A stretch of DNA of 63,399 nucleotides, filler included, from Spirochaetales bacterium (GTDB lineage Bacteria; Spirochaetota; Spirochaetia; Treponematales; UBA12059), in assembly GCA_016928955.1 (NCBI GenBank). It is 5 parts of 5 records of this genome, joined end to end, with 100 filler letters (N's around TTAATTAATTAA, not from the genome) between each part and the next. Parts side by side here need not be neighbours in the genome. Positions count along the whole stretch, not along the records: positions 1 to 17,622 come from JAFGJV010000007.1; 4 more parts are not named here. One strand, given 5' to 3'. Shown piece by piece: positions 84-63,399 of the stretch (position 1 is the first letter of the stretch; the number at the start of each line of letters is the position of its first letter). Both the position numbers and the translations under genes were made by a program. A model generated the notes under the pieces. That model had not been told where the DNA came from and did not search any database. It saw nothing but the letters and a program-made list of their open reading frames with translations.

Positions 84-590
84 GAAAAAGCGTTCCGCGC
101 GAAAGCGCAGGAACGCTTTTTTATTGGCCCAGAGGGGGACTTGAACCGAGGATGCGTCGCGAGCTAGCGAGCGCGAGGCGCAGGAAGCGCCGAGAGCATC
201 CGAGGCGGGCTGAAGCGGCGAGGCAGGACGGCGAGCCGCGTAAGCCAAGTCCCCCTCTGGGCAGAAAAAGCGTTCCGCGCGAAAGCGCAGGAACGCTTTT
301 TTATTGGCCCAGAGGGGGACTTGAAGGGTTCGAGCGCGCGCGACAGCGCGAACAGGCGCCATGGATGGCGCCGGCAGCGAGAACCCCGGCCCGAAGGACC
401 GAAGTAGGATGGTGAGGTCATGAGGGCAAGTCCCCCTCTGGGCATACGCCGCGAGACTCGCAGCGGCGTAGGGGAGGCGGGTCCGCAAGGAGCCGCCGGG
501 GGTATCCCCCGTGGGCCAAGGCGTTCCGCGCGAAAGCGCAGGAACGCTTTTTTATTGGCCCAGAGGGGGACTTGAAGGGTTCGAGCGCGC
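62..590 (+). repeat. tRNA-Leu 3'-end-derived repeat array (direct and inverted copies of the tRNA 3' end, terminator copies, structured spacers)
   Basis: 66-145 is identical to 246-325; CAAGTCCCCCTCTGGGCA recurs at 427-444; 127-147 is the exact reverse complement of 62-82, with further inverted copies at 307-325 and 558-576. Confidence 0.9.
85..122 (+). terminator. Intrinsic (bidirectional-type) terminator after tRNA-Leu; repeated at 265-302 and 521-553
   Basis: AAAAAGCGTTCC-GCGC-GAAA-GCGC-A-GGAACGCTTTTTT hairpin with A- and T-tracts. Confidence 0.8.
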
Positions 591-1393: not shown

Positions 1394-1427
1394 GGAGCCT
1401 CTAAAAACTGCAGTTTTTAGAGGCTCC
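1394..1427. repeat. Perfect 34-bp AT-rich palindrome (REP/MITE-like family A)
   Basis: GGAGCCTCTAAAAACTG|CAGTTTTTAGAGGCTCC; copies at 17956-17987 and 63212-63246. Confidence 0.9.
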
Positions 1428-1450
1428 CTTCAACCGTCAAGGGGGCCAAG

Positions 1451-16042: not shown

Positions 16043-16114
16043 GGCCCCTTCGTCTATCGGTTAGGACAAAAGATTCTCAATCTTTAAAGAGGGGTTCGAC
16101 TCCCCTAGGGGCTA
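16043..16114 (+). tRNA. tRNA-Glu(CTC)
   Basis: Acceptor GGCCCCT/AGGGGCT, anticodon stem AAAGA/TCTTT with loop TTCTCAA, T-loop GGTTCGACTCC. Confidence 0.93.
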
Positions 16115-16325
16115 AAAATGCCTGGCTTACGCCAGGCATTTTTTTATTGGCCCCAAGGGGAGTCGAACGGGTTGCGCCCGCGCGGCGAATGCCGCGGAAA
16201 GGCGCCAAGGATGGCGCCGTCAGGGCACAACCCCGGTCCCAAAGCCCGAGGCAGGATGCCGAGGGATGAGGGATCGACTCCCCTTGGGGCTAAAAAACGC
16301 CTGGCGCAAGCCGGGCGTTTTTTTA
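16114..16325 (+). repeat. tRNA-Glu 3'-end-derived module: terminator, inverted tRNA end, structured core, direct tRNA end, second terminator
   Basis: Hairpin 16114-16145; 16149-16168 is antisense to the tRNA 3' end; 16274-16292 is a direct copy; core homologous to 326-426. Confidence 0.85.
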
Positions 16326-17622: not shown

Positions 17623-17722
17623 NNNNNNNNNNNNNNNNNNNNNNNNNNNNNNNNNNNNNNNNNNNNTTAATTAATTAANNNNNNNNNNNNNNNNNNNNNN
17701 NNNNNNNNNNNNNNNNNNNNNN
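17623..17722. other. Contig-join linker (N44-TTAATTAATTAA-N44), preceded by a poly-G/poly-C artefact
   Basis: The identical 100-nt six-frame-stop spacer occurs four times. Confidence 0.97.
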
Positions 17723-17990
17723 GACGTGATTTGCGTAGCGGTTGCGGAATATGCAAACAACCGCGAGCAATCGCAGAGCCAATTTCAAAAGTAACAGACT
17801 TTTGAAATTAGCTCTATTCATGAAACTTTCCGCGTCCGCGGTATTTTTAGTTGGTGTGCGGACGGGCGGAGCTTTGGCTTCAGGGAACCTCTAAAACCCC
17901 ATGGTTATTAGTGGTTCACTGCGTTTTCGGCCGAAAACGCAAGGTTTTCTAAGCTAAGCCTCTAAAAACTGCAGTTTTTAGAGGCTTCCT
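17723..17990. repeat. Cluster of palindromic REP/MITE-like elements
   Basis: Hairpins at about 17728-17772, 17775-17815 (TTTCAAAAGT...ACTTTTGAAA), 17883-17919, 17920-17941 (TGCGTTTTCGGCCGAAAACGCA) and 17956-17987 (family A). Confidence 0.85.
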
Positions 17991-18026
17991 TCAGGCACGT
18001 TCCCACCGGAGTATGAAAGGCCAACG

Positions 18027-25034: not shown

Positions 25035-25134
25035 NNNNNNNNNNNNNNNNNNNNNNNNNNNNNNNNNNNNNNNNNNNNTTAATTAATTAANNNNNNNNNN
25101 NNNNNNNNNNNNNNNNNNNNNNNNNNNNNNNNNN
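25035..25134. other. Contig-join linker
   Basis: N-TTAATTAATTAA-N spacer. Confidence 0.97.
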
Positions 25135-31396: not shown

Positions 31397-31496
31397 NNNN
31401 NNNNNNNNNNNNNNNNNNNNNNNNNNNNNNNNNNNNNNNNTTAATTAATTAANNNNNNNNNNNNNNNNNNNNNNNNNNNNNNNNNNNNNNNNNNNN
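31397..31496. other. Contig-join linker
   Basis: N-TTAATTAATTAA-N spacer. Confidence 0.97.
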
Positions 31497-59209: not shown

Positions 59210-59309
59210 NNNNNNNNNNNNNNNNNNNNNNNNNNNNNNNNNNNNNNNNNNNNTTAATTAATTAANNNNNNNNNNNNNNNNNNNNNNNNNNNNNNNNNNN
59301 NNNNNNNNN
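59210..59309. other. Contig-join linker
   Basis: N-TTAATTAATTAA-N spacer. Confidence 0.97.
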
Positions 59310-63211: not shown

Positions 63212-63399
63212 GGGAGCCTCTAAAAACTGCAGTTTTAGAGGCTCCCATCATTAAAAAACGAAGCCGTGCATGGCTGGCGCACCAAAAGGAATTTTTAAAA
63301 CTTCGGTCTTAGGAGGCTCTTTCAAAAATCGGACGAGTTTTGAAAGAGCTACATAGTAAGACGTGATTTGCGTAGCGGTTGCGGAATATGCAAACAACC
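63212..63399. repeat. Cluster of palindromic REP/MITE-like elements
   Basis: Family A copy at 63212-63246, GCTCTTTCAAAA...TTTTGAAAGAGC at 63316-63349; 63360-63399 is identical to 17723-17762. Confidence 0.85.

What the first reader, a model, noticed from the sequence alone, without database searches (positions are those of the whole stretch)
16091..16325. Same cassette behind tRNA-Glu, with its ends rewritten to the Glu tRNA and covarying helices
Seen: the layout repeats at an unrelated tRNA: terminator, TTATTG, antisense Glu end (16149-16168), core, direct Glu end (16274-16292), variant terminator. The core aligns with 326-426 and structurally with 148-245. The closing helices are GGGTTG/CAACCC, GGGTTC/GAACCC and GGATGC/GCATCC. 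A GGCGCCA-NGGA-TGGCGCC hairpin is conserved (GGCGC-AGGAA-GCGCC in the first copy), followed by a second AGGA hairpin flanked by GA/GA mismatches. The two flanking copies share CCCCTTGGGG while the tRNA itself has CCCCTAGGGG, so they track each other rather than the tRNA. Inference: selection acts on RNA structure, and some mechanism builds tRNA-specific termini around a common core. This is the best candidate here for an undescribed system.
Basis: partly seen in the sequence, partly recalled or inferred. Interest (0 to 1): 0.8.

Follow-up and report, generated by a model that had tools for sequence, protein, structure and literature searches.

The report
Folded DNA cassettes wearing tRNA ends
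Behind a quarter of this bacterium's tRNA genes, and in 90 of 151 related spirochaete genomes, sits a gene-less folded 105-base module bracketed by a mirrored and a direct copy of the neighbouring tRNA's tail; it moves between tRNA genes, likely folds as single-stranded DNA, and is likely a tiny mobile element whose mobilising enzyme is still unknown.

Summary
Layout: tRNA, optional terminator, antisense tRNA end (stopping at position 72), ~105-nt two-domain core, direct end from C56. Covariation is very strong (32 of 34 pairs). Loop and pair chemistry (GCGNNAGC caps, 26 GNYA vs 2 GNRA, few G-T pairs, unlike adjacent terminators) points to a single-stranded DNA fold. Cores are inherited at a locus yet also jump (94% identical cores at Glu and fMet), and one conspecific contig carries about 194 extra bases, likely a second unit. 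The 'copies track each other' claim is an exception (14 of 293 variable positions) and strain-specific. No RT, GIY-YIG, RAYT or integrase is tied to it. Best reading: a non-autonomous, T-loop-targeting ssDNA insertion module (0.5); main rival a CsrA-binding RNA (0.2). It meets the descriptive definition of E. coli tRNA-linked repeats but homology was not shown; no Rfam family or paper found. This scan noted similar modules before in other phyla.

The parts
16043..16114 (+). tRNA-Glu(CTC), the target gene
   Evidence: ARAGORN and Rfam RF00005
16115..16148 (+). Terminator T1 (A-tract, 8-bp stem 16119-16126/16131-16138, T-tract) and A/T spacer; not a constant part of the family
   Evidence: sequence; absent or replaced in other members
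16149..16168 (+). Antisense copy of the tRNA 3' end, positions 72 to 53
16169..16233 (+). Core domain I: three-way junction, closing helix 16169-16174/16228-16233, variable arm P2, hairpin P3 16201-16218 with an ANGGAN loop
   Evidence: folds; covariation
16234..16274 (+). Core domain II: near-invariant CGG, helix P4 that closes on the T-loop junction, hairpin P5 16250-16260 with an A(G/C)GAN loop
16275..16292 (+). Direct copy of the tRNA 3' end, C56 to A73 (17 of 18 identical; 18 of 18 in conspecific contigs X2, X3)
16293..16325 (+). Terminator T2; about 194 extra bases lie here in conspecific contig X2/17
66..145 (+). tRNA-Leu(CAG) end + terminator + antisense end (80-nt hairpin module, copy 1)
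146..245 (+). Core 1 of the Leu array (divergent subtype)
246..325 (+). Exact second copy of the 80-nt hairpin module
   Evidence: 100% identical
326..444 (+). Core 2 of the Leu array and its direct tRNA end (427-444)
518..590 (+). Third, truncated Leu unit: terminator, antisense end and the first 14 nt of core 2

Best explanation
This is a gene-less ~105-nt folded module that sits only at tRNA and tmRNA 3' ends, is duplicated in arrays and changes tRNA partner, and it likely works as a non-autonomous insertion element acting as single-stranded DNA, whose antisense arm would pair with the target tRNA end and whose last helix would hold the core's 3' end against C56 of the T-loop for an unidentified host or trans-acting nuclease/recombinase to join. 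Shown: the fold in the tRNA-sense strand, the fixed junction in the T-loop, direct duplication of the target from C56 to a variable downstream point, near-identical cores at different tRNAs bounded by the universal T-loop words, and strain-level length variation. Inferred: that the active form is DNA, that the direct copy is the displaced or re-copied target rather than a rewritten element end, that cores move between loci through the T-loop words shared by all tRNAs, and that the antisense arm arises by fold-back copying and is kept matched by selection or hairpin repair. The enzyme is not identified.
For: Targeting: 13 of 13 full cores in G000 lie at tRNA/tmRNA ends; 140 of 186 distinct cores have a tRNA upstream in the DNA held, 162 of 186 can be assigned to one of 25 tRNA types; 60 of 88 metagenome matches have a tRNA upstream and 75 an antisense end. 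Fold: score 0.568 vs 0.149 shuffled and at most 0.086 slid, 32 of 34 pairs change on both sides; the 21 strongest APC-MI column pairs are all predicted pairs; sense strand more stable in 180 of 185 (DNA) and 177 of 185 (RNA). DNA chemistry: four-base G..A caps of P2 are GNYA 26, GNRA 2, against 4 and 19 in terminators of the same loci; G-T pairs 2.6% vs 6.3%; GCGN(N)AGC mini-hairpin caps in P2 of 62 of 185 cores, 0 of 185 on the other strand, background 0.02, a motif more stable in DNA than RNA (PMC13037366, passages). Mobility: G017 cores at Glu and fMet 94% identical with identity confined between the T-loop words; Gly/tmRNA 92%; related T1/T2 terminators are direct in 23 of 26, inverted in 0, tied in 3; identical 80-nt Leu modules around different cores; empty Glu sites L024/L025 carry the terminator type found behind the distal copy in filled L017/L023; contig X2/17 has about 194 extra bases at 16293-16296. 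Junction pairing: model pair 76-150 is G-C56 in 47 and G-T55 in 7 of 54 sequences with letters.
Against: No mobilising gene found: G000 lacks RT and Y1 transposase and has only UvrC as GIY-YIG; no nuclease, RT or integrase among 91 ORFs near 274 core sites; IntI does not co-occur (39 both, 51 core only, 30 IntI only). Much inheritance is vertical: the nearest core in another genus sits at the same tRNA in 52 of 130 cases vs 7.2 expected, which suggests long residence and possibly a host function. No empty site in five conspecific runs that bridge the locus. No hit in plasmids, phages or viral contigs. Loop counts are not independent (GATA mostly from one genus). P3 matches the CsrA loop consensus and the antisense arm spares the discriminator base, both easier to explain at RNA level.
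Confidence: 0.5

Rival explanations
1. A tRNA-coupled small RNA that titrates CsrA: read-through transcripts fold the antisense and direct ends into an acceptor-like helix, are cut out by tRNA-processing nucleases and present two GGA loops, as shown for E. coli RrA/B/F. Spread would then be by duplication and conversion under selection.
For: P3 loop is C95% A96% N G87% G96% A95% T68% G93%, the CsrA-type loop (consensus recalled; GGA-in-loop binding stated in search listings). CsrA hit in 86 of 90 carrier genomes; in family f4 the same 18 of 41 genomes have both. Position 73 is left unpaired in 28 of 31 arms that match at 69-72. Vertical persistence. Precedent PMC8144298 (Discussion part 1).
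Against: P5 loop has C instead of the first G in 46 of 128 and T in 6, with no covarying partner; 7 of 185 cores have GGA in neither loop; 37 genomes have CsrA without cores and 4 have cores without a CsrA hit; the f4 match may be one shared loss. DNA-type caps and scarce G-T pairs. Tandem, truncated and nested copies.
Confidence: 0.2
2. A passive repeat with no dedicated enzyme: an old insertion that is amplified by unequal crossover between tRNA-end direct repeats and shuffled between loci by gene conversion at T-loop words, its helices kept by template-switch repair of hairpins.
For: Exact tandem units in G271, G199, G255 (97-100%); direct T1/T2 duplications; two-sided G-C/C-G flips dominate and one-sided changes are rare; no partner gene.
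Against: Does not explain near-invariant unpaired positions (junction G/A residues, loop A..GA, CGG), the fixed T-loop junction, or first arrival with a matching antisense arm at 25 tRNA types.
Confidence: 0.18
3. Relic of a minimal tyrosine-integrase island (attL/attR scar, integron- or CTX-phage-like folded att site) recombined at the T-loop by XerC/D, IntI or an island integrase.
For: Direct repeat of the tRNA end; folded antisense:direct duplex resembles a single-strand att site (recalled); G000 encodes XerC, XerD, an IntI-type and two other tyrosine recombinases.
Against: Direct copy usually starts at C56, inside the T-loop, without the 5' T-stem arm; no integrase or cargo in cis; IntI absent from 51 of 90 carriers including complete genome G199 with 18 copies.
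Confidence: 0.08
4. A retro-element whose antisense arm is cDNA copied from mature tRNA by a reverse transcriptase.
For: Arm ends at the modified T-loop bases and is best conserved there (93-100% at 56-63); one arm (G000 Ala) carries the complement of an unencoded CCA.
Against: CCA complement in only 3 of 96 arms, 1 with position 73 matched; arms stop at 72; no RVT_1 in G000.
Confidence: 0.04

Closest known systems
tRNA-linked repeats (TLRs) of E. coli, incl. RttR and RrA/RrB/RrF (PMC8144298; Rudd 1999 seen only as cited there)
   Same: Non-coding, behind tRNA or 5S genes, end in an 18-19 nt copy of the upstream gene's 3' end that starts in the T-loop, tandem arrays, GA-rich hairpins; a CGGCCCG word at the equivalent place (17 of 19 sites of a TLR-derived 12-mer in K-12 are such repeats; CGGCCCG.AG in 31 of 186 cores).
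   Different: No tRNA-specific antisense arm in the tyr, lys and rrnB repeats checked; CCC pairs locally instead of closing on the junction; no three-way junction. Homology not shown: R2 gives rrB E 0.009 locally but nothing on the whole chromosome, and reciprocal profiles are negative.
Ssn GIY-YIG nucleases with NTS/SRM hairpin repeats (PMC11893778)
   Same: Non-coding repeats recognised as folded single-stranded DNA; precedent for a small nuclease cutting next to a hairpin.
   Different: SRM pattern in 0 of 60 cores; the paper has no mention of tRNA; 0 of 35 small or extra GIY-YIG loci in these genomes carry a core.
REP/BIME/REPIN with RAYT, and IS200/IS605 ends (recalled; briefly discussed in PMC11893778)
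   Same: Non-autonomous single-strand hairpin elements with GNA-type caps and target choice by base pairing.
   Different: Ends are copies of the target tRNA, not a fixed REP; long target duplication; Y1 gene absent from G000 and complete G030.
tRNA-targeting integrative islands and cis-mobilisable relics; integron attC and CTX-phage attP(+) (recalled)
   Same: 3' end of the tRNA duplicated at the far side; tandem accretion; folded single strand could act as a recombination site.
   Different: About 180 bp, no cargo, no integrase, antisense arm, cores swapped between tRNA types.
CsrB/RsmZ-type sponge RNAs
   Same: About 110 nt, GGA in hairpin loops.
   Different: Only two loop sites, one often CGA; 5-32 copies per genome; best Rfam PrrB_RsmZ score 15.7 bits vs cut-off 44, E 3.

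Membership tests
E. coli tRNA-linked repeats (TLR) | Lies downstream of a tRNA/rRNA gene and ends in 18-19 nt identical to that gene's 3' end | tested here: met
   17 of 18 in the window, 18 of 18 in X2/X3; mean 16.97 of 18 in 87 units
E. coli tRNA-linked repeats (TLR) | Sequence homology to the E. coli repeats | tested here: inconclusive
   Shared CGGCCCG word and rrB E 0.009 in 7.6 kb, but negative whole-genome and reciprocal profile tests
E. coli tRNA-linked repeats (TLR) | Transcribed and processed to a small RNA (shown for RrA/B/F) | not testable with these tools
   Only assembled contigs were served for RNA runs
Any Rfam family | Score at or above gathering threshold | tested here: not met
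   Only tRNAs in the window; nothing near threshold over cores in 9 loci
Ssn/SRM system | SRM degenerate motif | tested here: not met
   0 of 60 cores
Ssn/SRM system | Small GIY-YIG gene flanked by the repeat | tested here: not met
   0 of 35 GIY-YIG loci carry a core; a profile that scores controls at 67-141 bits finds nothing near cores or in G000
REP/REPIN-RAYT | Y1 transposase flanked by the repeat; fixed terminal REP | tested here: not met
   No Y1 in G000 or G030; Y1 in 4 of 5 other genomes but none among ORFs near cores; termini vary with the tRNA
Integron cassette / integrase island | Integrase in cis or co-occurring; cargo gene | tested here: not met
Integron cassette / integrase island | Recombination of the folded strand by a tyrosine recombinase | not testable with these tools
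   needs an in vitro assay
CsrB/RsmZ sponge RNAs | Several GGA motifs in hairpin loops | tested here: inconclusive
   GGA in both loops 100, one loop 78, neither 7 of 185
CsrB/RsmZ sponge RNAs | Binds CsrA | not testable with these tools
   needs EMSA or pull-down
Retro-elements primed by tRNA | Complement of the mature CCA end; reverse transcriptase | tested here: not met

The most novel reading that the evidence does not exclude
A new kind of protein-free, self-guided DNA insertion element: the folded single strand carries its own target guide (the antisense arm) and its own splint (helix P4 closing on C56), borrows a host enzyme, and is retargeted to any tRNA gene by changing about 10-17 bases; E. 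coli tRNA-linked repeats would be eroded members of the same superfamily.
Probability: 0.25. Interest if true: 0.85.

Novelty: new variant of a known kind. Interest (0 to 1): 0.63.

Why it matters
tRNA-linked repeats have been known in E. coli since 1978 with no explanation of their origin (PMC8144298). Here a deeply covarying, order-wide family shows the full anatomy (guide-like antisense arm, fixed T-loop junction, target duplication, core swapping) and gives a testable model. If the antisense arm directs insertion, this is a compact programmable DNA element that needs no encoded protein. If it is instead a CsrA decoy, it would be a candidate RNA antagonist of CsrA in spirochaetes, coupled to tRNA synthesis.

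Tried and rejected
GIY-YIG partner (own recall, then leads from earlier scan notes): family genomes show almost only UvrC-size hits; 35 small or extra GIY-YIG loci from the order and phylum have no core, and 1 has a tRNA in range but is flanked by SRM-type repeats. A first motif regex was too insensitive (missed UvrC) and was replaced by a profile with positive controls. IntI co-occurrence: rejected. RT origin with CCA copy: rejected. Donor tRNA-Glu with T66: not found in G000 or in the Glu(CTC) genes; a distant Glu gene (L125) has it but is unrelated. Inverted duplication of the terminator as the general mechanism: the window's T1 loop resembles the reverse complement of T2's, but 0 of 26 related pairs are inverted. 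Pseudoknot through the loop G/C position: no covariation. Homology to E. coli TLRs: suggestive only. Plasmids, phages, viral contigs: no match. Exact Glu core in metagenome contigs: no match. Expression: RNA run X13 had no contig over 16142-16345, but contigs cannot show absence and DNA run X10 also lacked cover there; no conclusion. The whole-contig read-laying was cut and showed no joint at the Leu array that I could interpret. Geobacter/Pelobacter multicopy-sequence papers (PMC2700814, PMC3543383; passages only) and PMC3184786 (passages) describe no such element in their main text; their supplementary alignments were not read and could hold relatives. Paper searches without a description of this family.

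Full report
Observation. The window is five contigs joined by N linkers; both the Leu and the Glu locus lie on contig C10. The Glu unit is as described: tRNA-Glu(CTC) 16043-16114, terminator, antisense end 16149-16168, core 16169-16274, direct end 16275-16292, second terminator. The core matches 326-426 at 77% over 105 nt (E 2e-13); it has no significant BLAST match to 146-245, whose helices and loops are nevertheless in the sequence. The unit folds far better than shuffles as RNA (z -9.5) and as DNA (z -9.8). Rfam finds only tRNAs.

The family in this genome. Scanning behind all 46 tRNA calls and the tmRNA, plus BLAST, showed the same layout at many genes. A covariance model from 11 of these copies finds 15 matches at E up to 0.001; the refined model finds 13 full cores at 12 ends: Leu(CAG) twice, Glu(CTC), Ser(GCT), Asn, Ala(CGC), Pro(GGG), Lys(TTT), elongator Met, tmRNA, and Val(TAC), Cys and Thr(CGT), the last three assigned by the end sequence because the intact gene is on another contig. 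Truncated or decayed copies follow Ser(CGA), fMet, Gly(CCC) and Pro(CGG).

Distribution. 33 of 35 family genomes (5-32 copies; 0 of 2 in one genus), 90 of 151 order genomes, 11 of 151 phylum genomes. An exact consensus pattern hit 11 named GTDB records, all labelled Spirochaetota, from which I infer the group. A domain-II pattern hit at least 113 metagenome stretches; in the 80 fetched, 60 of 88 matches have a tRNA upstream and 75 an antisense end. No match in plasmids, phages or viral contigs. I fetched 80 more regions from the 150 places listed (268 were not listed); with earlier loci this gave 186 distinct cores, 140 with a tRNA upstream in the DNA held and 162 assignable to 25 tRNA types; most of the other 24 still run into a T-loop-type word.

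Structure. Domain I is a three-way junction (P1, variable P2, P3); a near-invariant CGG leads to domain II (P4, a 3x3 G/A loop, P5), and the first P4 pair closes on the T-loop junction (G-C56 in 47, G-T55 in 7 of 54). On 60 sequences the covariation score is 0.470 vs 0.147 shuffled and at most 0.118 slid; on 128 further sequences 0.568 vs 0.149 and at most 0.086, with 32 of 34 pairs changing on both sides, and the 21 top APC-MI pairs are all predicted pairs. Both alignments were fitted to a model, so they lean towards it. Many remaining cells are tandem G-A (836 of them).

RNA or DNA. Four-base G..A caps on P2 are GNYA 26 times and GNRA twice; terminators at the same loci show 4 and 19 (nominal p 4e-8, overstated because kin are not independent and GATA comes mostly from one genus). 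G-T pairs are 2.6% of core pairs and 6.3% of terminator pairs. GCGN(N)AGC occurs in P2 of 62 of 185 cores (33 genus/tRNA combinations), in 0 of 185 on the opposite strand, background 0.02, and in 7 of 96 terminator regions. PMC13037366 (start of abstract and passages) defines this motif as an unusually stable DNA mini-hairpin, less stable as RNA, found at single-strand origins. This favours, but does not prove, a DNA fold.

The ends. In 87 first units the direct copy matches the tRNA at 16.97 of 18 positions and the antisense arm at 14.4; of 293 variable positions the direct copy sides with the tRNA at 227, the arm at 45, both differ together at 14, all differ at 7. In conspecific contigs X2 and X3 position 16285 is A, as in the tRNA, while the arm is unchanged: the window's T is most simply a recent change restoring the arm:direct pair (inference). 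The arm is 93-100% conserved at positions 56-63, 52% at 72 and 25% at 73 (96 units); where 69-72 match, 73 matches in only 3 of 31. A CCA complement is seen in 3 of 96. The terminator is dispensable: minimal units have a few bases between tRNA and arm. In some lineages the direct copy includes the whole T-loop, and at fMet it often starts with A instead of C56.

Movement. Inheritance at a locus is clear (nearest core in another genus at the same tRNA in 52 of 130 vs 7.2 expected; 133 cores of 95-115 nt with genus and tRNA labels were compared). So is exchange: 94% identical cores at Glu and fMet in G017 and 92% at Gly and tmRNA in one genus, with identity confined between the T-loop words. Of 78 units with two terminators 52 are unrelated, 23 direct, 0 inverted, 3 tied, so the target is duplicated from C56 to a variable point. 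The Leu array has an identical 80-nt module around two different cores. Empty Glu sites exist in relatives, and their terminator type sits behind the distal copy in filled sites. Of five conspecific runs bridging the Glu unit, four are colinear and one (X2) has about 194 extra bases, of which 48 match 16096-16138 on the opposite strand; I read this as a second unit but could not see its letters; none was empty.

Partner search. G000 has no RVT_1, no Y1 transposase, only UvrC as GIY-YIG, and five tyrosine recombinases (XerC, XerD by inspection, an IntI-type enzyme, two others). 35 small or extra GIY-YIG loci have no core. Of 105 ORFs of 65-200 aa within 450 nt of 274 core sites, 91 were scanned with Pfam (14 redundant or tRNA-overlapping ones left out): no nuclease, RT, transposase or integrase. 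IntI: 39 both, 51 core only, 30 IntI only, 31 neither. CsrA: 86 both, 4 core only, 37 CsrA only, 24 neither; in family f4 the same 18 genomes have both, which may be a single loss.

Mechanism. I favour a non-autonomous single-strand DNA insertion module (0.5): the arm pairs with the target end, P4 aligns the core's 3' end with C56, an unknown enzyme nicks and joins, and replication duplicates the target. Targeting, fold, duplication and exchange are shown; the DNA form, the guide role and the enzyme are inferred. The CsrA-decoy reading (0.2) rests on the P3 loop, the spared discriminator, CsrA co-occurrence and the RrA/B/F precedent; against it are the CGA variant in 46 of 128 P5 loops and the DNA-type caps. 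Passive amplification (0.18), integrase relic (0.08) and RT origin (0.04) fit less well. The first two readings can both hold.

Known families. PMC8144298 (passages and Discussion part 1) defines TLRs by an 18-19 nt copy of the upstream gene's end and says they have no known function apart from CsrA binding by three rRNA-linked members. The Glu unit meets that definition. K-12 TLRs share a CGGCCCG word and GNA caps but lack a tRNA-specific antisense arm in those checked; profile tests do not establish homology. Ssn/SRM (PMC11893778; abstract, passages, section 8) fails both tests. REP/RAYT, attC, CTX-phage and integrase sublocation comparisons rest on recall. Eight paper searches found no description of this family; subscription papers and the supplements of the Geobacter and Pelobacter papers were not seen. 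Earlier notes of this scan describe similar modules in Patescibacteria, Clostridia and others, some with GIY-YIG genes; they are unchecked and I could not test whether they are homologous.

Verdict. Real, strongly conserved, mobile at least in part, undescribed in this form, best filed as a new variant of tRNA-linked repeats with a testable guide-and-splint model. Interest 0.63.

Noticed in passing
window 17623-17722, 25035-25134, 31397-31496, 59210-59309: N linkers: the window joins five contigs (C10, C12, C16, C17, C38), so neighbourhoods across them are artificial.
   Followed up: yes
window 1396-1432, 17957-17993, 63215-63251: 37-bp palindromic repeat; its core motif has 31 matches in G000 and many contig ends break at it; a REP-like family.
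   Followed up: partly
window 445-516; L021, L190, L191: A second hairpin repeat type interrupts the Leu array and is inserted inside cores elsewhere, in L190 and L191 within the P3 loop.
   Followed up: no
G000 C42, C27, C5, C22; L112, L114: Truncated second copies often stop at or just after the P3 loop, a possible cleavage or insertion hot spot.
   Followed up: no
L200 (G017:C1): Two cores in opposite orientation around fMet ends, suggesting inversion between the inverted repeats.
   Followed up: no
L423 (G199): One core nested in the P5 arm of another behind tRNA-Pro.
   Followed up: no
fMet loci L087, L092, L214, L220, L222, L227, L235, L265: Direct copy starts with A instead of C56 in several genera, and its pairing G is deleted in L087 and L092: locus-specific co-evolution.
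   Followed up: partly
L187 1400-1720 (minus strand): A different structured insert behind tRNA-Asn that also ends in a direct copy starting at C56 but does not match the model.
   Followed up: no
L159-L189: Small Ssn-type GIY-YIG genes in the order are flanked by SRM-like or other REP-like repeats, not by tRNA cassettes.
   Followed up: partly
G000 C39 11082-12661, C42 660-1050, C28 2283-3623, C22 113-1060: An island integrase beside tRNA-Thr(CGT) with a displaced Thr end on C42 that carries the cassettes; also an integron-type integrase and another tyrosine recombinase.
   Followed up: partly
E. coli K-12 loci L401-L419: 17 of 19 sites of one 12-base motif are tRNA- or 5S-linked repeats (lys, tyr, arg, pro, rrn), i.e. 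these TLRs share one core.
   Followed up: partly
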